A stretch of DNA of 32,000 nt from Pseudothioglobus sp. nBUS_23 (GTDB lineage: Bacteria > Pseudomonadota > Gammaproteobacteria > PS1 > Pseudothioglobaceae). The notes beneath the pieces are model-generated. The model was given only the letters and a program-made list of their open reading frames with translations. It was not told the DNA's origin and searched no databases. Positions 13,420 to 27,558 of this stretch are shown here, piece by piece. The translations under genes were made by a program, and so were the position numbers. Within the stretch, counting starts at the first letter, position 1; each line of letters begins with the position of its first letter. The DNA lies in contig NZ_CP179200.1 in NCBI RefSeq assembly GCF_051201565.1, forward strand, positions 1,762,441-1,794,440. Direction: 5' to 3'.

Positions 13420-13448
13420 TTGCAATAATATTGCGTTTACGTTATATT
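13420..13448 (+). promoter_or_regulatory. Putative sigma70 promoter (TTGCAA - 17 nt - TATATT) overlapped by a Fur-family-type 7-1-7 inverted repeat, TGCAATA A TATTGCG at 13421-13435 (candidate Zur operator)
   Basis: Read directly. One mismatch in the palindrome. It lies 43-57 nt upstream of the first ATG of an operon whose last gene is a Fur-family regulator. The symmetry resembles the gammaproteobacterial Zur box TGTTATAATATAACA, with symmetric substitutions. Confidence 0.45.
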
Positions 13449-13477: not shown

Positions 13478-14128
13478 ATGTTTAAACTCAGCTTTCTATC
13501 TTTATTATTAGTTTCATCTTTTGCAAGCGCTGAAGAAGCAAGGCGCGCCAATGCGCATGTCCATGGACTAAATAATTTGTCAATGGTAATCAGTCAAAAT
13601 CAAGTTGCTGTTTCATACGAAATGCCAATAGTACAGCTACTTGATGACCATGATGAGCATGACGAGCACGATGAGCACGATGAGCATGACGAGCACGATG
13701 AGCATGACGAGCACGATGAGCATGACGAGCACGATGAGCATGACGAGCACGATGAGCATGACGAGCACGATGAGCACGATGAGCACGATGAGCACGAAGG
13801 ACATGATGACCATGATGAGCTAACTGTTTCAGATGAAACTTTAGCTACATTTAACAATTACTCGCAATTATTTGAATTCCCCAAAGGCGCTGGATGTAAT
13901 CTAACCTCTTTTGAATCTGGTCTTCACAGCGTCTCAACAGAAGGAGATCACAAAGACGTTGAATTATCTTATGAGTTTGCTTGCAGCAATCCAAGTCAGT
14001 TAAAGAGCCTTACTATCAATGCGTTTGATCGATTTAGCGAACTTGAAACTTTAAACTTTGAGGCGGTAATAAACAATAAAGCTCTAACAAAGAGCCTAAA
14101 ATCAGGTGCTAATAAAGTAATATTTTAA
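13478..14128 (+). CDS. Secreted His/Asp/Glu-rich metal-binding protein, DUF2796 / ZrgA / PA4063-like
   Basis: 216 aa. Signal peptide MFKLSFLSLLLVSSFASA, then an AHVHG motif and beta-rich core as I recall for DUF2796. Central (HDE)16-HEGHDDHDE tract. First gene of an ABC + DUF3299 + zur operon. Confidence 0.75.
   Translation: MFKLSFLSLLLVSSFASAEEARRANAHVHGLNNLSMVISQNQVAVSYEMPIVQLLDDHDEHDEHDEHDEHDEHDEHDEHDEHDEHDEHDEHDEHDEHDEHDEHDEHEGHDDHDELTVSDETLATFNNYSQLFEFPKGAGCNLTSFESGLHSVSTEGDHKDVELSYEFACSNPSQLKSLTINAFDRFSELETLNFEAVINNKALTKSLKSGANKVIF
13649..13792 (+). repeat. In-frame tandem repeat: 16 consecutive CAY-GAY-GAG (His-Asp-Glu) units, including five perfect copies of the 18-bp unit CATGACGAGCACGATGAG at 13685-13774
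   Basis: Counted codon by codon from the sequence. The acidic/His tract extends from 13643 to 13819. Confidence 0.98.
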
Positions 14129-14139
14129 ATGAGGGTCTG

Positions 14140-14799
14140 ATGTTACAAGCGCTAGGTCTGGAATACCATTATCAGCAGGGTAAAAAAATTGTATTTCCAG
14201 AAATAGAGATTGAAAGAGGGCAGAGATTATTAATTAGTGGTTTTTCAGGTTGTGGTAAAACAACCTTACTGAGCCTAATTGCTGGCGCCTTGCAGCTTCA
14301 GGTTGGTGACATTAAATTTGATGACCAAGATTACTCATCAATGTCCTCGCTGCTTTTGGATAGGCATAGAGCTGATCATATCGGCTATATTTTTCAAACA
14401 TTAAACCTCATCCCCTTTTTAAGTGTTTCTGAAAACATAGGATTAGGTATTCGATTCTCTCATTCTAGAAAATCCAGAGTTAGCAATCTAAATCAAGAAA
14501 TTAATAGGCTGGTAGACTCTTTAGGTCTAGACAAAGAGGTTTTAAACACGCCAGTCAACCGCTTAAGTGTTGGACAACAGCAAAGGGTTGCAGCAGCTAG
14601 AGCTCTTCTGGGCAAACCAGACTTAATTCTTGCGGACGAGCCTACCTCCGCCCTAGATTCTGACACAACTAAAAAGTTTCTAAATGAGATGATGGAAACC
14701 TTTGATGCCTCAAAACAGGCCATTATTATGGTCAGTCATGATGCCTCAATAGCACCCTACTTTGACTCTGTAATAGACTTTAATAAACACTATGCTTAG
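14140..14799 (+). CDS. ABC transporter ATP-binding protein (MacB/LolD-like; PA4064/ZrgB-like)
   Basis: 219 aa. Walker A GFSGCGKTT, signature LSVGQQQRVAAARAL, Walker B LILADEPTSALD, H-loop VSHD. Confidence 0.9.
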   Translation: MLQALGLEYHYQQGKKIVFPEIEIERGQRLLISGFSGCGKTTLLSLIAGALQLQVGDIKFDDQDYSSMSSLLLDRHRADHIGYIFQTLNLIPFLSVSENIGLGIRFSHSRKSRVSNLNQEINRLVDSLGLDKEVLNTPVNRLSVGQQQRVAAARALLGKPDLILADEPTSALDSDTTKKFLNEMMETFDASKQAIIMVSHDASIAPYFDSVIDFNKHYA

Positions 14800-16039
14800 T
14801 CTTTTGCTTAAATCAATGCGTTCAAGAATGATTCCAACTTCGCTTGTAACAATATCTTTAATGGCCTCGATGGTTCTGTTGCTCAGTATTGAGAGAATTC
14901 AACAAGGCGCAGAAGAGGGTTTTAATCAAAGCATTTCTGGTGTTGATGCGATTATCGGCCCAAGGTCTAGCTCTCTCGAATTAGTTTTATATACAGTTTT
15001 CCATCTGGGCAGGCCGACAAATAACATTACGACAGAAACTATCAATGATGTCAAACAAAGAAGCGATATTAGTTGGCTGGTTCCAATTGCATTAGGAGAT
15101 AGTCATAGAGGGTTTAGAGTTGTGGCTACTGAGCCAAACTACTTTAAACACATCAGGTATGGAAACAATCAGCCCCTAACCTTCTCAAAAGGCGTGCCTT
15201 TTGCTGAGCTATCTGAGGCAACCTTAGGCTCTGATGTTGCTGAAAAACTCAACTACAGCATTGGTTCAGAGATCCAAATCACTCATGGCTCAATTGAGTC
15301 AATAGGGAGCAAGCATGATGACTTTTCATTTAAGGTAACCGGCGTTCTTAATAAAACAGGCACCCCAATCGACCAGGCTGTCTTCCTCGATTTAAAGGGC
15401 TATGAGCTTCTTCACTTAGGCTGGAAAAGCGGAAAAAAAGTATTTAGTCTTGAAGATATTGACTTGTCTTCTCTTCCGCCTGAAGCTCTTAACCCAAAAA
15501 CAGTTACGGCTGCTTTTGTGGGTCTTAAATCAAAGCTAACTATATTTAACTTTAGCAAGAATATCAGAGAATATCCAGAGGAAGCGATATCCGCGGTTAT
15601 ACCAGGAATAGCCTTGTCTGAACTTTGGTCTATAGTTGGATTAGTTGACAAAGGGTTTCAGCTTTTAAGCTGGATAATAATTGCAATTAGCCTTATTGCA
15701 ATGGTCACCTTAATTATTGCAAGTCTAGACAACCGAAAACATGAAATGACAATATACAGGGCCAATGGGGCCTCCCCCAAATTTTTGGCCGCCATGGTAA
15801 TTTATGAATCACTTGTAATTGGCCTGGTGGCAATAATTGGTGCAATTATTCTTGTTACTGCTGTTACCTATTTCGCCACTAACCAGCTTAATTTGGCTTT
15901 AGGTATTTCTCCCTCGTTTAAATGGATTAGCCTAAATGAAATTAAAGTTTTCGGTATTATTTTATTGTCTGGAGTATTAAGCGGCTTAATTCCAGCAGTG
16001 ATGGTTTTTAGAAAGAATTTACATCAGGCATTGAGTTAA
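14792..16039 (+). CDS. ABC transporter permease, FtsX/MacB-type (4 TM with a large periplasmic domain; PA4065/ZrgC-like)
   Basis: 415 aa. One N-terminal TM, a hydrophilic domain of about 240 aa, then three C-terminal TMs (the FtsX-fold pattern). 8-nt overlap with the ATPase gene. Confidence 0.85.
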   Translation: MLSLLLKSMRSRMIPTSLVTISLMASMVLLLSIERIQQGAEEGFNQSISGVDAIIGPRSSSLELVLYTVFHLGRPTNNITTETINDVKQRSDISWLVPIALGDSHRGFRVVATEPNYFKHIRYGNNQPLTFSKGVPFAELSEATLGSDVAEKLNYSIGSEIQITHGSIESIGSKHDDFSFKVTGVLNKTGTPIDQAVFLDLKGYELLHLGWKSGKKVFSLEDIDLSSLPPEALNPKTVTAAFVGLKSKLTIFNFSKNIREYPEEAISAVIPGIALSELWSIVGLVDKGFQLLSWIIIAISLIAMVTLIIASLDNRKHEMTIYRANGASPKFLAAMVIYESLVIGLVAIIGAIILVTAVTYFATNQLNLALGISPSFKWISLNEIKVFGIILLSGVLSGLIPAVMVFRKNLHQALS

Positions 16040-16609
16040 ATGATAAATAGGCTGTTGGTTATCAGTTTAATTTTTCTCTCATTGGGCTCTTCTGCCATTG
16101 TAGTCACAGATGAGTACTTGACTACTATAGAAAATAACTGGCTAAGCCTTGAGCCAGATGATGCATATGATTTTATTCCCGAAGACCTCACTTATGAGAT
16201 GTACATGAGTGAAGAGTTTCAAGCTAAATTGGCTGCAGAGGGAACCAGGCTGAACAATTCTGTAGAGGGCAAGGATATTGCTCTTGCTGGGTTTATGGTT
16301 CCAATTGAGTATCAGGGCACTAGGATCAGTAAGTTTTTACTAGTTCCTGAAGCTGGGCAGTGTATTCATGTACCGCCTCCACCTTTGAATCAAACTTTAC
16401 TTGTAGATGTCACTGGCAGTCCTACAAAGTTTCGTGATTTGTACATGCCAATAATTGTTTATGGGAGAATATCTGTAGGATCGCAAAGCTTTGATCTTGC
16501 AGATAGTGGATATACCATTACTGATGCTGTTATTGAAACACTTCATTTTAGTGACGAAGAATATGCCAATGAAGATTATAGCTATAACCTAGAGGACCCT
16601 CATGATTAG
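16040..16609 (+). CDS. DUF3299-like exported protein (PA4066-like)
   Basis: 189 aa. N-terminal signal-like segment. The conserved FLLVPEAGQCIHVPPPPLNQ motif is, as I recall, diagnostic of DUF3299. The ATG directly follows the permease stop. Confidence 0.75.
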   Translation: MINRLLVISLIFLSLGSSAIVVTDEYLTTIENNWLSLEPDDAYDFIPEDLTYEMYMSEEFQAKLAAEGTRLNNSVEGKDIALAGFMVPIEYQGTRISKFLLVPEAGQCIHVPPPPLNQTLLVDVTGSPTKFRDLYMPIIVYGRISVGSQSFDLADSGYTITDAVIETLHFSDEEYANEDYSYNLEDPHD

Positions 16610-17018
16610 TAGATCAGAATTAATATCTAAATGTCTAGAAACGGGACGAAGCGCAACACCCCAAAGAATGTCAATTATTGACGAACTTTGCTCCTCCAAA
16701 AAAAATCTATCTGCTTATGACCTTAAGGACTCCCTTAAAGACAAAGGCCATTCATTTAATATTAGTACAATATATAGGGTTTTAGACTTTTGGATTGAAT
16801 TGGGTGTTGTTCATAAAATGGACTCAAGCAATACCTATTTGGTTTGTAATGATAGCCATACTAACCATTTCCATGTGTTGCTTCACTGTACTAGCTGCAA
16901 ATCAGTTCAAGAGTCTTGTCAGCTTTCAGCACAGCTCTCATTACCTGACAGCAATAAGTTTGCTGTTAATGATTCTCAGGCTGTTGAGATTAATGGCGTC
17001 TGCAACAAATGCCAATAA
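16602..17018 (+). CDS. zur: Fur-family metalloregulator, probably Zur
   Basis: 138 aa. Winged-helix N-terminal domain (TPQR..I...L; STIYRVLD), H.NHFH cluster, and two CxxC pairs (CTSC, CNKC) for structural Zn. 8-nt overlap with the upstream gene. The Zur call rests on operon context, not on sequence alone. Confidence 0.7.
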   Translation: MISRSELISKCLETGRSATPQRMSIIDELCSSKKNLSAYDLKDSLKDKGHSFNISTIYRVLDFWIELGVVHKMDSSNTYLVCNDSHTNHFHVLLHCTSCKSVQESCQLSAQLSLPDSNKFAVNDSQAVEINGVCNKCQ

Positions 17019-22772: not shown

Positions 22773-23129
22773 AAACAACAATTAAATATATAATGTTGAG
22801 CCTCCCCTTTAATAGCTCTAAGCACTATCATAACCAAAAACTGCGCAGGAAAAACGAAAAAAGGCCCAATTATAACGAGTCTTTTTTTGGGATGCGTCGA
22901 ATACTCTAAAAGCCTTACACAGAAAAACAGGCAGCCAAATAGTCTTTGCGTATTTAGAAAAAATATGGGATAATTGTCGCCTTTCAGCATTTTAGCTGGA
23001 AAAGGAACGGCATTGTATTAACAACGTCAGTAATTTAATGTATCACACAGCGCCCCAATATTAGTCAGGGTGCCCTTTAAAAGGGGTTGGCTAATAGGCA
23101 ATGTGGAAGTCTTAACCCAGGAGAAATGT

Positions 23130-24122
23130 ATGGCGAAAGCGTCAATGAAAAAAATGTTAGAGGCCGGTGTTCACTTCGGCCACAGGTCTCGTTTTTGGCA
23201 CCCAAAAATGGAGCCTTATATTTACGGAACACGAAACGGTGTTCACATAATCAATTTAGAAAAAACACTGCCCCAGTTTAATGATGTACTAAACTTTGCA
23301 AGCAAAACTGCATCTCAAGGAGGATCAATTCTCTTTGTAGGAACAAAAAGAGCTGCAAGCAACATAATTAAAGATGAGGCAATTCGTTGCGGCATGCCTT
23401 ACGTTAATCATCGCTGGTTAGGCGGAATGATGACAAACTACAAAACTATCAAGGCGTCTATAAAACGACTTAAAGATTTAGAGTTTCTAGCAGAAGAAAA
23501 CTTTGCTCAATTTACTAAGAAAGAAGCCCTAGTAATGACCCGCGAGATGGAGAAGCTAGAAAGAAGCCTTGGCGGCATTAAAGACTTGGGCACCATACCT
23601 GATGTTGTTTTTGTGGTTGACATTGGTCATGAAAAAAATGCTGTTAGAGAAGCTCAAACTCTTCGCCTGCCAATTATAGGCGTTGTAGACTCTAATCATA
23701 ATCCTGAGGGCATCGATTATGTGATAGCTGGAAATGATGATTCAATTAGAGCAATTGGATACTATGCAAGAAAAATTGCAGACGCGGTTTTGGAGGCTAA
23801 AGCTTCTATCGTTGAGACAAAGCCTGCAGCAAAGAAAGAGGCTACTAAAAAGCCTGCAGCAAAGAAAGAGGTTTCTGAAGAAAGCACTGAAGCGGAAGCG
23901 CCTGCTGAAGAGAAAAAACCTGCAGCTAAAAAGCCTGCAGCAAAGAAAAAGGTTTCTGAAGAAAGCACTGAAGCGGAAGCGCCTGCTGAAGAGAAAAAAC
24001 CTGCAGCTAAAAAGCCTGCAGCTAAAAAGCCTGCAGAAAAGAAAGAGGCTACTAAAAAGCCTGCAGCTAAAAAGCCTGCAGCAAAGAAAACCTCAGCTAA
24101 GAAAACTGAGGCCGACAAGTAA
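23130..24122 (+). CDS. rpsB: 30S ribosomal protein S2 with a C-terminal Lys/Ala/Pro/Glu-rich extension of about 100 aa
   Basis: AGGAGA RBS at 23119-23124. [24 protein letters not shown] is the canonical S2 N-terminus, so the upstream GTG at 23070 is rejected. The CDS is 330 aa against 241 aa in E. coli. Confidence 0.95.
23851..24012 (+). repeat. 81-bp tandem duplication (2 copies, 1 mismatch) inside the S2 tail, embedded in a wider array of AAGCCTGCAGCWAARAA (KPAAKK) motifs spanning about 23818-24095
   Basis: Copy 1 is 23851-23931 and copy 2 is 23932-24012. They differ only at one G/A (E to K). A third copy starts at 24013 but diverges. Confidence 0.95.
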
Positions 24123-24152: not shown

Positions 24153-25031
24153 ATGGCAATCACAGCCGCTTTAGTTAAAGAATTAAGAGAAAGAACTGGT
24201 GCAGGAATGATGGACTGCAAGAAAGCGCTCGTTGAAACCAATGCAGATCTTGAGGCAGCAATTGACTTGATGCGCGCTTCAGGAGCTGCAAAAGCTGCAA
24301 AGAAAGCTGGTCGAGTTGCTTCTGAAGGATTGGTGAATGTTACTATCAGTGATGATAACAAACATGCTGCAATTCTTGAGGTCAACTCTGAAACTGACTT
24401 CGTCACAAAAGGCTCTGCATTTATAGATTTTGTAGAAGCCTTAGGTGCACTAGCGCTCAAAAATAAGCCTGAGTCAGTTGAAAGCTTTGTAAGCCAGAAG
24501 CTAGATTCTGGAGAAACTGTTGATGAGGCTAGAGAGGGAATTATTGCGAAGATTGGAGAAAATATTTCAGTTAGAAGAGTGCAAATTGTAAGCACTGATA
24601 GTGGTGTTTTAGGCGCCTATAAACATGGTGATCGAATTGCAGTGCTTGCAGTGCTCTCGTCTGAGGATGCTGAATTAGCTAAAGATGTGGCTATGCACAT
24701 TGCCGCTTCTAGGCCTGAGTGTGTAAGTGAAGATCAGCTTTCCAGCGAACTGCTAGAGAGGGAGAAAGCAATCTTTATTGAACAAGCAAAAGAGAGTGGC
24801 AAGCCAGATAACATCATTGAAAAGATGATTGTGGGAAGAATGAAAAAATTTGTAAACGAGGTAACCCTTTACGGACAGGCATTTGTTAAGGACCCAGACA
24901 TGGCTGTTGGAGACCTTGTAAAATCGAAAAATTCTGAAGTTTTATCGTTTGTTCGATATGAAGTTGGCGAAGGAATAGAGAAAAAAGAAGACAACTTCGT
25001 TGAAGAGGTTATGGCGCAAGCTCAAGCCTAA
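24153..25031 (+). CDS. tsf: Translation elongation factor Ts
   Basis: 292 aa. N-terminal AALVKELRERTGAGMMDCKKAL UBA-like motif. Follows rpsB as in most bacteria. Confidence 0.95.
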   Translation: MAITAALVKELRERTGAGMMDCKKALVETNADLEAAIDLMRASGAAKAAKKAGRVASEGLVNVTISDDNKHAAILEVNSETDFVTKGSAFIDFVEALGALALKNKPESVESFVSQKLDSGETVDEAREGIIAKIGENISVRRVQIVSTDSGVLGAYKHGDRIAVLAVLSSEDAELAKDVAMHIAASRPECVSEDQLSSELLEREKAIFIEQAKESGKPDNIIEKMIVGRMKKFVNEVTLYGQAFVKDPDMAVGDLVKSKNSEVLSFVRYEVGEGIEKKEDNFVEEVMAQAQA

Positions 25032-25086: not shown

Positions 25087-27558
25087 TTACAGGCTTGTTT
25101 TGTCTTTGATGATTATTTTCATAATTGCTGGCATCAGAAAAAAATCAGCTAGCAATGCAACCAATATTGCGCTTGCGGTTAAAATTCCAAAATCAAACAT
25201 GTTGTTCATCTGAGAAAAGGTAAGCACAAGAAAACCAAGAGCCAGAACAATAGATGTAAGCGTTATTGCTCTTCCAGTTCCTAGTAGTGTTAAACGAACC
25301 GCCTTGTCTACATCGTTATACTGCAACTCATACCTTCTGAAGTTGTGCATAAAGTGAACCGTATCGTCAACAGCCAGGCCTAGTGCAATAGCCCCAATTA
25401 AAAGTGTAAACATATCTAAAGGCATTTTGAAAATCACCATGATTGTTGAAAGGATAATGATTGGCAAAAGATTAGGAATCATACTAATGAGCCCAATCTT
25501 AATATTTCCAATCAATAAAACCATTAATATAGCGATAAGAGAAAATGCCAAAATATAACTCACAGCACTACTATAAATAGCCTCTTCAAAGGTCACTGTC
25601 ATGAGGGTGCCTATCCCTGTAAAGGTTACTTTTGCCAAGGAGCCAAACTTTTCGTCGAGATAAAGCTGCGCATTATCAATAAAAGTGTTTGCCTCAAGAG
25701 AGTCTATGAATGGAGTTTTTAGAGTTAGCCTGGCTTTAGAATAGTTAGAGTCAACGAGACTGGCTAAATCATTATTGCCGCTACTTTCAAACAGTAAAAA
25801 TTCTTGGGCAATAAGGTCAGGGTCGTCTGGAATAGCGTAGTATTCATCACGGTTTTCATTTAAAGCTCTATTGGTTTCTTTGATGACATCAATGTAGCTT
25901 ATGACCTTTCCAACAAACATATTTCCTGTTGAAATCGAATTGATGTTTTGAGAGACGTCATCAATAACCCTTAAGACTTCTGGATTATAGAGGCCGTTTG
26001 TTTTCTCAGTATCAATAATCACTTCTAGAGTAAGGGAGCCCTTTAAGTTTTTATCAACCTCCTCTGTTGCTATTCGTGCAAAATTATCCTCTGGGAGCCA
26101 CTGAAGCGGGAAGTGAGAAAACCTTAGTTGAGAAGCAATAATAGCTGCACATATTATTAAAACAGCGCTTAGTGAAACAATTAACTTTGGCTTGCTGGTT
26201 GCAAAAACGCTGATCCCAATAAGCGCTTTATCCATAAACGTTTGGCCATCCTTTCCTGTCCTTTGCTTGATTGGCCTAAACTTGGTTACTGAAATCAAAG
26301 ATGGAAGAAAGATTAATGTAAAAACAAGCCCAACCATTACCCCGCTACTAGCAAAAACACCAAGATCTGCTACAGGCGCCACTCCAGAAAACGAGAAAGA
26401 CCACAGGCCTACAGCAGTTGTAATTGAGGTCATTATAATCGCCAATCCAGAGTGTCCCATTGCATATCTAAGAGACTTTTTTGTATCATTGGTTGTTGCG
26501 AAATCCTTATAAAATACTGCCAGTAAGTGAATGGACGCACTTGTCACAACCGCAAGAAGAAATGTTGGCATGATTTGAGTAGCCATAGTAAATGGTGCGG
26601 AAAAAATTGACATCAGGGACACTGTCATTATTAGTGTCAATGAAACACAGGCCAATGGCAATATGACTCCGGACACCCTTCTAAATAAAGCGAACAAAAC
26701 AACCATGATAACAATCATCATTAAACTAATAAAAACAGCCGAATCATTCATAAGCGCCTGCTTAAAAATACCTGCAATTGCCGCAGAACCTGACAAGTAG
26801 ATCTCAAAATTACTGTCATTAAATCGCTCCATAATTCTTTGCGTTTCAGCAATGATTTCGTCATTTTCAGCATCAGTTAAATAGAGCCTCTGCTCACCAA
26901 GAGTATCGTCATCAAACTCCAGCCCATCATCAAACTCCAGCCCATCATCAAACTCCAGCCCATCATCAAACTCCAGCCCATCATCAAACTCAAAGCTTTG
27001 TGTCTCTTGGGGGGCGCCTGAGCTTGAATAAGTCTCTGTATCAATCGTCACTGTAGTCATAGTGAAGTCTTCACTATATAGTGAGTTTTCATAAAGACTA
27101 TTGTTAGTTACTGTTTCTTTAAGCTTAATGAGGTCATCTTTATTTTTTGGCAAGCTGTCTATTAAGGGCTCAACAATAAGCTCTCCCTCAATTCCGTAAG
27201 TATTTCTTGCATTAATTAGTGAGTCGACCGCCTTAATATTTGGCAGTTCATTCTCTAAGGCATGGTGAAAATTATCGAGTTTTTCTAAAAAATTAAGATC
27301 AAAGATGTTATTTGTTTTAACGGCGATCATTAGCTTTTCATCACGACCAAATTGGTCTCTGAAAACATCGTACTCAACCCTCATTGGGTCTGTTTTATGC
27401 AAAAAACCTTCAGTAGTTGTGTCCACCTTTAGAGAAGGCAATTGAGATCCAATTGCAACTACTAATACAAAAATCGCTAGGATCATTTTCTTAGCGTTAT
27501 CAAAAATCCAGTCAGAAAAGTTCTCTAATTTATTTTCAGTTCTTGTGCGCCAGTTCAT
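25087..27558 (-). CDS. RND-superfamily / MMPL-type membrane transporter (predicted exporter, COG1033-like)
   Basis: 823 aa. Two-fold pattern of 1 TM + large loop + 5 TM, repeated twice, typical of MMPL/HpnN-like RND proteins. Substrate unknown. Confidence 0.75.
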   Translation of the reverse strand: MNWRTRTENKLENFSDWIFDNAKKMILAIFVLVVAIGSQLPSLKVDTTTEGFLHKTDPMRVEYDVFRDQFGRDEKLMIAVKTNNIFDLNFLEKLDNFHHALENELPNIKAVDSLINARNTYGIEGELIVEPLIDSLPKNKDDLIKLKETVTNNSLYENSLYSEDFTMTTVTIDTETYSSSGAPQETQSFEFDDGLEFDDGLEFDDGLEFDDGLEFDDDTLGEQRLYLTDAENDEIIAETQRIMERFNDSNFEIYLSGSAAIAGIFKQALMNDSAVFISLMMIVIMVVLFALFRRVSGVILPLACVSLTLIMTVSLMSIFSAPFTMATQIMPTFLLAVVTSASIHLLAVFYKDFATTNDTKKSLRYAMGHSGLAIIMTSITTAVGLWSFSFSGVAPVADLGVFASSGVMVGLVFTLIFLPSLISVTKFRPIKQRTGKDGQTFMDKALIGISVFATSKPKLIVSLSAVLIICAAIIASQLRFSHFPLQWLPEDNFARIATEEVDKNLKGSLTLEVIIDTEKTNGLYNPEVLRVIDDVSQNINSISTGNMFVGKVISYIDVIKETNRALNENRDEYYAIPDDPDLIAQEFLLFESSGNNDLASLVDSNYSKARLTLKTPFIDSLEANTFIDNAQLYLDEKFGSLAKVTFTGIGTLMTVTFEEAIYSSAVSYILAFSLIAILMVLLIGNIKIGLISMIPNLLPIIILSTIMVIFKMPLDMFTLLIGAIALGLAVDDTVHFMHNFRRYELQYNDVDKAVRLTLLGTGRAITLTSIVLALGFLVLTFSQMNNMFDFGILTASAILVALLADFFLMPAIMKIIIKDKTSL
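26908..26997 (-). repeat. 18-bp in-frame tandem repeat, 5 copies (4 near-perfect + 1 diverged), encoding SFEFDD-(GLEFDD)4
   Basis: The plus strand reads (A/G)TCATCAAACTCCAGCCC x4 followed by ATCATCAAACTCAAAGCT. It lies in the first large extracytoplasmic loop of the transporter. Confidence 0.95.

What the first reader, a model, noticed from the sequence alone, without database searches (positions are those of the whole stretch)
13643..13819. Perfect (His-Asp-Glu)16 tract built from an 18-bp DNA repeat in a secreted protein
Codons 58-73 are 16 uninterrupted HDE triplets followed by HEGHDDHDE, giving 19 His in 57 residues; 37 of the other 38 residues are Asp or Glu and one is Gly. At the DNA level, CATGACGAG and CACGATGAG alternate, producing five perfect 18-bp copies at 13685-13774. 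This looks like recent slippage or recombination expansion. Related zinc-trafficking proteins are described as having His-rich loops, but this regular polymer seems far beyond a loop. It could be a high-capacity, low-affinity metal sponge or antenna, and its length could vary between strains as a tunable or contingency-like repeat.
Basis: seen in the sequence. Interest (0 to 1): 0.66.

Follow-up and report, generated by a model that had tools for sequence, protein, structure and literature searches.

The report
Hypervariable His-Asp-Glu repeat loop in ZrgA
The (His-Asp-Glu)16 tract is real: it is the flexible metal-binding loop of a zinc-starvation periplasmic protein (ZrgA family) of a marine Thioglobaceae-like bacterium, it is encoded by an in-frame DNA repeat whose length differs between nearly identical wild genomes, and this gives a natural series for testing what such histidine-rich loops do.

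Summary
ORF 13478-14128 (+) carries (HDE)16 followed by HEGHDDHDE, with 19 His in 57 residues. Five perfect 18-bp units lie at 13685-13774.

- **Identity.** The protein belongs to the ZrgA family (Pfam PF10986; the model's best fold matches are PA4063 and V. cholerae ZrgA). It is the first gene of a zrgA-ABC ATPase-MacB-type permease-DUF3299-Zur-like operon. A conserved 7-1-7-type palindrome overlaps the promoter.
- **Variation.** The tract is an in-frame VNTR. Across 95 related loci it runs from 5 to 116 residues. Of 58 locus pairs with identical flanks, only 4 share a tract length. A contig 99.4% identical over 3.2 kb has 98 residues instead of 59. No allele is frameshifted, so this is length tuning and not on/off switching.
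- **Not beyond the family.** The V. cholerae loop is 61 aa and other members reach 100 aa.
- **Position.** The tract lies in the β2-α1 loop and replaces the GFEH motif that supplies the Glu ligand of conserved zinc site 1. The characterised homologues carry their loop between β3 and β4.
- **Function.** Extra low-affinity Zn/Co sites feeding site 1 are inferred by analogy and were not tested.
- **Caveat.** Short-read assemblies censor long alleles.

The parts
13420..13435 (.). Conserved palindromic operator candidate TTGCAATAATATTGCG. The core GCAATA-A-TATTGC is a perfect 6-1-6 palindrome. In several relatives TGCAATA-N-TATTGCA is a perfect 7-1-7.
   Evidence: Read from the sequence. It is the only exact match in the window. 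It is the best-conserved intergenic block across 10 loci whose coding flanks are only 80-95% identical. That it is a Zur box is inferred.
13420..13448 (+). Sigma-70-like promoter candidate: -35 TTGCAA, 17-nt spacer, -10 TATATT. It overlaps the palindrome.
   Evidence: Consensus scan (9 of 12 matches). The -10 block TTATATTAT is conserved. This is a consensus match only.
13478..14128 (+). zrgA-family gene (216 aa) encoding a periplasmic metal-binding protein.
   Evidence: Pfam PF10986 ZrgA, E 5.3e-19, 69 bits against a cutoff of 27.4. A family profile hits PDB PA4063 at 5e-47 and V. cholerae ZrgA at 1e-42. The AF2 model's best Foldseek hits are the same two proteins.
13478..13531 (+). Sec-type signal peptide MFKLSFLSLLLVSSFASA with an ASA|EE cleavage motif.
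   Evidence: Read from the sequence. No signal-peptide predictor was available, so this is an inference.
13556..13564 (+). H27-V-H29 (AHVHG), the HxH ligands of the conserved zinc site 1.
   Evidence: Invariant or nearly invariant in family alignments. Corresponds to His35/His37 of V. cholerae ZrgA (PMC9820375).
13643..13819 (+). His/Asp/Glu tract DD-(HDE)16-HEGHDDHDE (residues 56-114). It is an in-frame VNTR and a predicted disordered loop between strand β2 and helix α1, at the place of the family's GFEH motif.
   Evidence: repeat and polymorphism; position in the family alignment; pLDDT below 50 and no secondary structure for residues 58-112.
13685..13774 (+). Five perfect copies of the 18-bp unit CATGACGAGCACGATGAG, the most recently expanded part of the tract.
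   Evidence: The perfectly 18-periodic stretch is 104 nt.
13949..13951 (+). H158 (GDHKD), a family-invariant His that corresponds to His184 of V. cholerae ZrgA, the fourth ligand of site 1.
   Evidence: Invariant. Aligned with the 'geHsD' profile segment. Role taken from PMC9820375.
14140..14799 (+). ABC transporter ATPase (zrgB-like).
   Evidence: Pfam ABC_tran, E 3.5e-30.
14792..16039 (+). MacB-type permease (zrgC-like). It overlaps zrgB by 8 nt.
   Evidence: Pfam FtsX 1.1e-13 and MacB_PCD 5.9e-09.
16040..16609 (+). DUF3299 periplasmic protein (zrgD-like).
   Evidence: Pfam PF11736, E 5.2e-27.
16602..17018 (+). Fur-family regulator, most similar to Zur. It is the last gene of the operon and overlaps zrgD by 8 nt.
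   Evidence: Pfam FUR 1.2e-12. The best NCBIfam match is Zur NF008646, E 6e-21, 74.9 bits, below the equivalog cutoff of 167. Two CxxC pairs are visible in the sequence.

Best explanation
The tract is the flexible His/Asp/Glu-rich metal-binding loop of a ZrgA-family periplasmic protein. The gene is the first of a probably Zur-repressed zrgABCD-zur operon in a marine gammaproteobacterium whose closest public loci are labelled Ca. Pseudothioglobus/Thioglobus. The loop is encoded by an in-frame tandem repeat of 9-bp H-D/E-D/E units, organised in 18- and 27-bp super-units. It expands and contracts by replication slippage or unequal recombination much faster than the flanks accumulate substitutions. 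Natural populations therefore carry an allelic series from one unit (DEHDE) to at least 38 units. All changes stay in frame, so only loop length changes. The loop is inserted between β2 and α1, exactly where other ZrgA proteins carry the GFEH motif whose Glu is a ligand of the conserved zinc site 1 (HxH + Glu + His). The inferred mechanism is as follows. The polyanionic, disordered (H-D-E)n chain offers many weak, rapidly exchanging Zn(II) (possibly Co(II)) sites. These raise capture capacity and radius under metal scarcity. The chain then hands the ion to the adjacent site 1, to which one of its own carboxylates or imidazoles probably contributes. Shown here: repeat structure, family and fold membership, operon context, loop position, predicted disorder and population-level length polymorphism. 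Inferred: Zur control, periplasmic location, metal binding by the tract, hand-over to site 1, and any fitness effect of length.
For: Repeat and composition. Family: Pfam ZrgA above threshold; profile-to-PDB hits PA4063 5e-47 and V. cholerae ZrgA 1e-42. The AF2 model has domain pLDDT above 90, and its top 16 Foldseek hits are all PA4063 or ZrgA, with target TM 0.71-0.81 (0.75 or more for 15 of the 16). Operon. Conserved palindrome over the promoter. Polymorphism: 120 close homologues of 162-226 aa differ almost only in the tract. In 83 parsed loci the tract is 5-116 aa. Clusters with nearly identical flanks show series such as 5, 8, 11 ... 38 aa. Only 4 of 58 pairs with zero differences in 474 flank nt share a tract length. 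L083 differs from the window at 19 of about 3200 aligned nt but has 98 instead of 59 tract residues. Alleles differ by whole 9-, 18- or 27-bp modules marked by synonymous codons, so they are not simple collapses of one another. Sanger-era AACY contigs (14, 17 and 29 aa) and a complete genome (116 aa) also differ. All alleles are in frame. Position: the GFEH motif is present in 103 of 131 family representatives with a fixed 35-aa β2-α1 segment and a variable central loop. The window's subclade lacks it and carries the His-rich insertion there. Numbering of Glu66/His67 follows and PMC9820375. Disorder: pLDDT below 50 and no secondary structure for residues 58-112. Function by analogy: the V. cholerae loop gives 4-5 extra, mostly low-affinity Zn sites (PMC9820375). 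The His-rich stretches of PA4063 are disordered, face the zinc-binding side and order on Zn binding (PMC8561739).
Against: - No metal-binding, expression or localisation data exist for this protein.
- Deleting the V. cholerae loop did not impair growth under zinc limitation (PMC9820375).
- Natural alleles with only DEHDE exist in several lineages, so a long tract is not required for basic function and its length may be neutral.
- The transport direction of the zrg/PA4063-66 system is disputed. It is a zinc importer in Vibrio (PMC9820375, PMC9817125) but a MacB-type exporter of pyochelin-cobalt in P. aeruginosa (PMC11481552).
- Most alleles come from short-read assemblies. The longest perfectly periodic stretch in any of them is 109 nt or less, and three genome assemblies break at or next to the tract. 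Some lengths may therefore be wrong, and the distribution is censored at the top.
- The NCBIfam ZrgA equivalog cutoff is not reached.
Confidence: 0.7

Rival explanations
1. Neutral low-complexity drift. The β2-α1 loop tolerates any length, the repeat slips because it is a repeat, and tract length has no effect on fitness or metal handling beyond what the minimal DEHDE core gives.
For: Minimal 5-residue alleles occur in several lineages. One cluster that has contracted to DEHDE is almost fixed at that length (5, 5, 5, 5, 11), as expected if mutability depends on copy number. The V. cholerae loop deletion has no growth phenotype (PMC9820375). Length distributions within clusters are broad and nearly flat.
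Against: His-rich expansions with different repeat units (HDE, HDEHK, HEEHK, KEHHDEHK, a 16-residue unit) have arisen repeatedly in the family at two loop sites that both face the zinc site (PMC8561739). In the two main lineage groups whose unit types were printed, about 88% of repeat units keep the pattern H-[DE]-[DE], and all eight synonymous versions of HDE occur while non-conservative variants are rare. This is suggestive only, because new units arise by copying.
Confidence: 0.3
2. The loop serves a MacB-type exporter or a sensor, not zinc import. ZrgA would bind Co/Zn or a metallophore complex in the periplasm as an accessory or regulator of an export pump, and the tract would buffer or sense metal.
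For: The permease has MacB periplasmic core and FtsX domains. PMC11481552 argues that PA4063-PA4066 exports pyochelin-cobalt. PMC8561739 proposes a chaperone or concentration-sensor role and micromolar affinity for PA4063.
Against: In V. cholerae and V. parahaemolyticus zrgA supports growth under zinc limitation, and the highest-affinity site is sub-nanomolar (PMC9820375, PMC9817125). No metallophore genes were seen next to the operon among the ORFs scanned.
Confidence: 0.15
3. The length polymorphism is mainly an artefact of assembling a tandem repeat from short reads.
For: Two MAGs have contigs that end inside the tract, and one SAG contig starts just after it. No assembly contains a perfectly periodic stretch longer than 109 nt. 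The only complete genome has by far the longest tract.
Against: Alleles differ in the order of synonymously marked modules and cannot be derived from each other by collapse. Many tracts (15-60 nt) are far shorter than any read or k-mer. Sanger-era contigs and single-cell genomes also differ. Lengths form continuous series and do not cluster at k-mer-determined sizes.
Confidence: 0.05
4. Classical contingency locus. Repeat changes switch the gene on and off by frameshifting.
For: It is a hypermutable simple repeat inside a coding region.
Against: The unit length is 9 nt. All tracts recovered in the 95 loci are in frame and none has a stop codon. The repeat is not in the promoter.
Confidence: 0.02

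Closest known systems
Vibrio cholerae ZrgA (PDB 8ezw/8f1b; zrgABCDE operon)
   Same: Same Pfam family and fold. It shares the HxH plus invariant His ligands of site 1 and the conserved Cys pair. It has the same operon partners (ABC ATPase, MacB-type permease, DUF3299). Its flexible His/Asp/Glu loop is about as long, at 61 aa; that loop adds low-affinity Zn sites and is dispensable in vivo (PMC9820375).
   Different: The V. cholerae loop lies between the first Cys and the GHxD motif (the central β3-β4 loop). Here that segment is short, and the tract replaces the GFEH motif in the β2-α1 loop. Sequence identity is only 10-14% in the fold alignments to ZrgA chains, and the NCBIfam ZrgA equivalog cutoff is not met. 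The operon ends in a Zur-like gene; no sequence of zrgE, the fifth gene of the V. cholerae operon, was compared. The tract is a perfect tandem repeat with population-level length variation.
Pseudomonas aeruginosa PA4063 (PDB 7ahw/7amx)
   Same: Best structural match (E 3.7e-9, target TM 0.78). Noncanonical ferredoxin-like fold. Its disordered His-rich stretches face the zinc-binding side and order on binding (PMC8561739). It is Zur-regulated with a MacB-type partner (PMC11481552).
   Different: [quoted passage not shown] Affinity is micromolar. The system is proposed to export pyochelin-cobalt.
His-rich loop of cluster A-I zinc-binding proteins (ZnuA, AztC)
   Same: A flexible, unstructured His/acidic loop next to the high-affinity site. 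Its length varies between species, it adds weak zinc sites, and its function is still debated (as summarised in PMC9820375 and PMC8561739).
   Different: The fold is unrelated (Venus-flytrap SBP). No ZnuA-family Pfam hit was found here. Works alike, but is not a member.
In-frame coding VNTRs of bacterial surface or periplasmic proteins
   Same: Repeat units that are multiples of 3 nt, slippage-driven length alleles among near-identical strains, and no loss of reading frame.
   Different: Those usually concern adhesins or antigens under immune or phage pressure (own knowledge). Here the repeat encodes metal ligands in a free-living marine bacterium.

Membership tests
ZrgA / DUF2796 family (Pfam PF10986) | Sequence match to the family HMM above the curated threshold | tested here: met
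   69.2 bits against a cutoff of 27.4, E 5.3e-19. All 240 listed homologues carry PF10986.
ZrgA / DUF2796 family (Pfam PF10986) | Noncanonical ferredoxin-like α/β sandwich fold of PA4063/ZrgA | tested here: met
   AF2 model with domain pLDDT above 90. The top 16 Foldseek PDB hits are only PA4063 and V. cholerae ZrgA, target TM 0.71-0.81, E 4e-9 to 4e-7. This is a predicted model, not a solved structure.
ZrgA / DUF2796 family (Pfam PF10986) | Conserved zinc site 1: HxH near the N-terminus and the invariant His of the GHxD motif | tested here: met
   H27, H29 and H158 are invariant in alignments A1 and A3. They correspond to His35/His37/His184 of V. cholerae ZrgA (PMC9820375).
ZrgA / DUF2796 family (Pfam PF10986) | Glu of the GFEH motif as third ligand of site 1 | tested here: not met
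   The motif is absent. The segment after P50 is IVQLL followed by the HDE tract. A carboxylate from the tract may substitute, but this is inferred. The whole subclade (about 22-28 of 131 representatives) shares this deviation.
ZrgA / DUF2796 family (Pfam PF10986) | Conserved Cys pair (disulfide Cys100-Cys195 in V. cholerae) | tested here: met
   C140 and C169 are invariant or nearly invariant. Disulfide formation itself was not tested.
ZrgA / DUF2796 family (Pfam PF10986) | Operon with ABC ATPase, MacB/FtsX-type permease and DUF3299 protein | tested here: met
   The genes abut or overlap (14140-14799, 14792-16039, 16040-16609).
ZrgA / DUF2796 family (Pfam PF10986) | Zur-dependent repression | not testable with these tools
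   Indirect evidence only: a conserved palindrome over the promoter and a Zur-like gene in the operon (below the equivalog cutoff).
ZrgA / DUF2796 family (Pfam PF10986) | Zinc binding and requirement for transport | not testable with these tools
   Needs biochemistry or genetics.
NCBIfam NF047873 'zinc uptake protein ZrgA' (equivalog) | Score above the equivalog cutoff | tested here: not met
   46.8 bits against a cutoff of 185. The protein is a distant family member, not an equivalog of Vibrio ZrgA.
Contingency (phase-variable) simple-sequence-repeat locus | Hypermutable repeat with strain-level length variation | tested here: met
Contingency (phase-variable) simple-sequence-repeat locus | Repeat changes switch expression on or off (frameshift or promoter spacing) | tested here: not met
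   Units are 9, 18 or 27 nt. All tracts in the 95 loci are in frame.
Cluster A-I zinc solute-binding proteins (ZnuA type) | ZnuA/SBP fold and family HMM | tested here: not met
   No such Pfam hit. The fold matches are ZrgA/PA4063 only.

The most novel reading that the evidence does not exclude
Tract length is not neutral. It would be a rapidly evolving, selectable 'dial' on a periplasmic metal-capture antenna in a marine bacterioplankton lineage. Allele length (1 to more than 38 HDE units) would track the local zinc/cobalt regime. The relocation of the His-rich loop onto the site-1 Glu position would define a mechanistically distinct ZrgA subclass, in which the disordered repeat itself completes the high-affinity site.
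Probability: 0.2. Interest if true: 0.7.

Novelty: new variant of a known kind. Interest (0 to 1): 0.48.

Why it matters
His-rich flexible loops occur in nearly all Gram-negative periplasmic zinc-binding proteins. Their role is still called enigmatic in the structural literature (PMC9820375, PMC8561739), and deletion mutants show little phenotype in rich laboratory tests.

This locus offers a natural allelic series of the same protein with 1 to more than 30 His-Asp-Glu units on otherwise identical backgrounds. The organisms live in seawater, where zinc is scarce in the open ocean (own knowledge). The question therefore becomes testable in two ways: biochemically, by measuring stoichiometry and transfer kinetics against unit number, and ecologically, by relating allele length to measured trace metals.

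The locus also shows that the ZrgA family has two alternative insertion sites for such loops, one of which replaces a ligand of the conserved site.

On the practical side, the repeat breaks or distorts short-read assemblies of these genomes.

Tried and rejected
- **Single-sequence PDB search.** It found only spurious low-complexity or LRR hits. A family profile was needed.
- **First AF2 run on a shallow alignment of 30 close homologues.** It gave mean pLDDT 52 and was not used for fold search. It was repeated with 146 sequences.
- **Exact-sequence look-up of the window's protein.** The protein is not on record, so the source and sequencing technology of the window remain unknown, and the count of 16 units cannot be checked against reads.
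- **Search for further copies of the palindrome in the window.** There were no other convincing sites; matches with 3 mismatches were no more frequent than chance.
- **Literature searches.** Searches for repeat polymorphism of His-rich loops, or for zinc biology of Pseudothioglobus, found nothing relevant in the held library.
- **Alternative-frame ORFs across the tract.** These are 13600-13857 (-), an SSC repeat, and 13641-13823 (+), an MTST repeat. They are by-products of the repeat with no independent support.
- **On/off phase variation.** Rejected because units are multiples of 3 nt and no frameshifted alleles were found.
Full report
**1. Observation**

The ORF 13478..14128 (+) encodes a 216-aa protein.
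- Residues 58-105 are sixteen uninterrupted His-Asp-Glu triplets (DNA 13649-13792). They are followed by HEGHDDHDE, which ends at residue 114.
- These 57 residues contain 19 His, 37 Asp/Glu and one Gly.
- The finding's coordinates 13643-13819 add the two preceding Asp.
- At the DNA level CATGACGAG and CACGATGAG alternate. The 18-bp unit is repeated perfectly five times at 13685-13774, with one more copy at 13658-13675.
- TRF scores the array 251, with period 18 and 9.9 copies.
Everything else is exact.
- Chance is excluded. The 104-nt perfectly 18-periodic stretch compares with a maximum of 31 nt in 2000 codon shuffles of the gene. Shuffling the tract's own codons never gives more than (HDE)4 in 20000 trials.

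**2. What the gene is**

Family and fold:
- The protein matches Pfam PF10986 (ZrgA family, formerly DUF2796) at E 5e-19, above the gathering threshold.
- A single-sequence PDB search failed.
- A profile of 131 diverse family representatives hits P. aeruginosa PA4063 (7ahw, 5e-47) and V. cholerae ZrgA Δ124-184 (8ezw, 1e-42).
- An AlphaFold2 model built on a 146-sequence alignment has pLDDT above 90 for the folded domain (residues 31-52, 115-150 and 158-216).
- Its top 16 Foldseek hits in the PDB are exclusively these two proteins, with target-normalised TM 0.71-0.81 (0.75 or more for 15 of the 16).
- The NCBIfam equivalog model for Vibrio ZrgA is matched only weakly (46.8 bits against a cutoff of 185). 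This is therefore a distant family member and not an orthologue-grade match.
- The N-terminus MFKLSFLSLLLVSSFASA|EE looks like a Sec signal peptide. This is from inspection only, because no predictor was available.

Operon:
- Downstream genes abut or overlap: an ABC ATPase (14140-14799), a permease with MacB periplasmic-core and FtsX domains (14792-16039), and a DUF3299 protein (16040-16609).
- The last gene is a Fur-family regulator whose best NCBIfam match is Zur (16602-17018).
- This is the zrgABCD arrangement known from Vibrio and from Pseudomonas (PA4063-66), with an embedded zur-like gene.

Upstream region:
- The palindrome TTGCAATAATATTGCG (13420-13435) overlaps a -35/-10 candidate.
- It is the only exact match in the window.
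- It is the best-conserved intergenic block in ten loci whose coding sequences have diverged to 80-95%. In several of them it is a perfect 7-1-7 inverted repeat, the Fur-family operator architecture.
- Zur control is thus inferred and not shown.

Organism: the closest public genome loci are labelled Candidatus Pseudothioglobus or Thioglobus, with some as uncultured gammaproteobacteria, Piscirickettsiaceae or PS1 clade. They include single-cell genomes, MAGs and one complete genome. The assignment rests on this locus only.

**3. The tract is an in-frame VNTR**

Protein-level evidence:
- The 120 closest proteins found in public metagenomes are 162-226 aa long. They differ almost only in the tract, which always starts at residue 56.

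Locus-level evidence comes from 14 genome loci and 80 metagenome loci:
- The tract ranges from 5 residues (DEHDE) to 116 residues.
- I clustered loci by the 474 nt of zrgA that flank the tract. Each cluster with nearly identical flanks carries a length series:
  - 23/32/59/86/98 aa in the window's own cluster;
  - 5, 11, 14, 17, 20, 26, 29, 32, 38 aa in a second cluster;
  - 5, 8, 11, 14, 17, 20, 23, 29, 32, 35, 38 aa in a third;
  - 8 to 29 aa plus 116 aa in the cluster that contains the complete genome.
- Of 58 pairs of loci with zero flank differences, only 4 have the same tract length.
- Contig L083 differs from the window at 19 of about 3200 aligned bases but has 98 instead of 59 tract residues. 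L039 has 59 residues arranged differently.
- Units can be labelled by their synonymous codons. Alleles then appear as mosaics of an 18-bp module (CATGACGAG-CACGATGAG), a 27-bp module HEG-HDD-HDE and others.
- A further lineage varies (HEGHDDHEE)n from n = 2 to 5.
- These patterns fit slippage or unequal recombination of whole units.
- Every tract recovered is in frame. The locus therefore changes loop length and does not switch the gene off.

**4. Caveat on assemblies**

- Two MAGs have contigs that end inside the tract, and one single-cell contig begins just after it.
- No assembly contains a perfectly periodic stretch longer than 109 nt.
- The one complete genome has by far the longest tract, 348 nt.
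- Short-read assembly therefore censors long alleles and may miscount some.
- It cannot explain the polymorphism as a whole, for three reasons:
  - Alleles differ in module order.
  - Many are much shorter than a read.
  - AACY contigs, which to my knowledge are Sanger-read ocean-survey assemblies, also differ (14, 17 and 29 aa).
- The window's own allele is not on record elsewhere, so its exact unit count could not be checked against reads.

**5. Where the tract sits**

[quoted passage not shown] In V. cholerae these are residues 113-184, between Cys100 and His184 (PMC8561739, PMC9820375).

The window protein is different:
- The model's order is β(33-39)-β(42-50)-[tract]-α(119-126)-β-β... The tract (58-112) has pLDDT below 50 and no secondary structure.
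- In the family alignment, 103 of 131 representatives have a fixed 35-residue β2-α1 segment that contains the motif GFEH, and a variable central loop (median 35 aa, up to 89 aa).
- The window's subclade (about 22-28 representatives) lacks GFEH. It has Y-x-M-P-x-x-Q-L followed by a His-rich insertion (median 45 aa, up to 83 aa) and a short central loop.
- Counting from the AHVHG motif in the 8ezw sequence shows that GFEH is G64-F65-E66-H67 of V. cholerae ZrgA. Glu66 is a ligand of site 1, the only zinc site widely conserved in the family, and His67 is the ligand of a minor site (PMC9820375).
- The other site-1 ligands are conserved here: H27 and H29 (the HxH motif) and the invariant H158.
- The repeat therefore replaces the segment that supplies the carboxylate ligand of the conserved site. 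The minimal natural allele, DEHDE, still offers Glu-His there.

**6. How unusual it is**

- Among 136 family representatives the median H/D/E-rich segment is 6 residues, the 90th percentile is 31, three are 59 residues or longer, and the maximum is 100.
- Several have their own periodic units, such as (HDEHK)6.6, KEHHDEHK and a 16-residue unit.
- The V. cholerae loop that was studied experimentally is 61 residues.
- The window's tract is therefore in the upper tail but not 'far beyond a loop'. Repeat-driven expansion of such loops has happened many times in the family.

**7. Likely mechanism**

By analogy, the disordered, strongly acidic (H-D-E)n chain provides multiple weak, fast-exchanging sites for Zn(II), possibly also Co(II). 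The analogy rests on two results:
- The V. cholerae loop accounts for 4-5 additional, mostly low-affinity Zn sites, and a residue at its end contributes to high-affinity binding (PMC9820375).
- The PA4063 loops become ordered on zinc binding (PMC8561739).

These weak sites would enlarge capture capacity and radius under zinc starvation and pass the ion to the adjacent site 1. This part is inference.

Three points count against a strong functional role:
- The V. cholerae loop deletion grows normally under zinc limitation.
- One-unit alleles exist in nature.
- The transport direction of these MacB-type systems is disputed. Import is supported in Vibrio (PMC9820375, PMC9817125), and export of pyochelin-cobalt is proposed in P. 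aeruginosa (PMC11481552).

A neutral-drift reading of the length variation therefore remains a serious rival.

**8. Verdict**

- The feature is real and the family is known. A variable His-rich loop is already described as a hallmark of ZrgA proteins.
- Two things appear to be new relative to the papers read:
  - strain-level hypervariability of the loop as a coding VNTR;
  - its placement in a different loop, where it replaces a site-1 ligand motif, in a distinct subclade.
- I rate it a new variant of a known kind, of moderate interest. Its main value is as a natural allelic series for testing the long-debated role of His-rich loops.

Noticed in passing
window 23070-24122 (+), repeats at 23845-24100: The ribosomal protein S2 gene (Pfam Ribosomal_S2, 3e-89) carries a C-terminal extension of about 100 aa rich in Lys/Ala/Pro/Glu (KKPAAKK...). 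It is encoded by an 81-bp unit x2.3 and 15-bp repeats and gives a weak histone H1-like (HC2) hit. tsf follows at 24153-25031.
   Followed up: partly
window 26909-26991, within ORF 25087-27558 (-): A perfect 18-bp x4.6 tandem repeat (TRF 100% matches) encodes (GLEFDD)n in the N-terminal periplasmic part of an MMPL/RND-type membrane protein. This is a second candidate in-frame VNTR in the same window. Relatives were not compared.
   Followed up: partly
L011 3656-4003 (NZ_CP159805.1, Ca. Pseudothioglobus sp. Uisw_041, complete genome): The orthologous tract is 116 residues (33 His), and several units have mutated to NDE and were then themselves duplicated. A MAG (L007) in the same near-identical flank cluster has only 29 residues. 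This suggests that short-read assemblies underestimate real lengths.
   Followed up: partly
L009/L013 (CAYNES01), L010/L014 (LURN01), L012 (CABXIU01): Contigs of two MAGs end or start inside the tract, and one single-cell contig starts just downstream of it. The repeat is an assembly breakpoint in these genomes.
   Followed up: yes
window 16602-17018 (+) and 13420-13435: A Zur-like Fur-family gene is the last, overlapping gene of the zrg operon, and a conserved 7-1-7-type palindrome covers the operon's promoter. This implies an autoregulated zinc-starvation module. No second copy of the box is present in the 32-kb window.
   Followed up: partly
family alignment A1: ZrgA-family proteins fall into two architectures. 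In one, GFEH is retained and the β3-β4 loop is variable (103 of 131 representatives). In the other, GFEH is lost and a His-rich insertion sits in the β2-α1 loop (about 22-28 of 131). I did not find this split described in the papers read.
   Followed up: partly
window 13600-13857 (-) and 13641-13823 (+, other frame): The repeat creates long alternative-frame ORFs (SSC and MTST repeats). They are mechanical by-products without independent support.
   Followed up: yes
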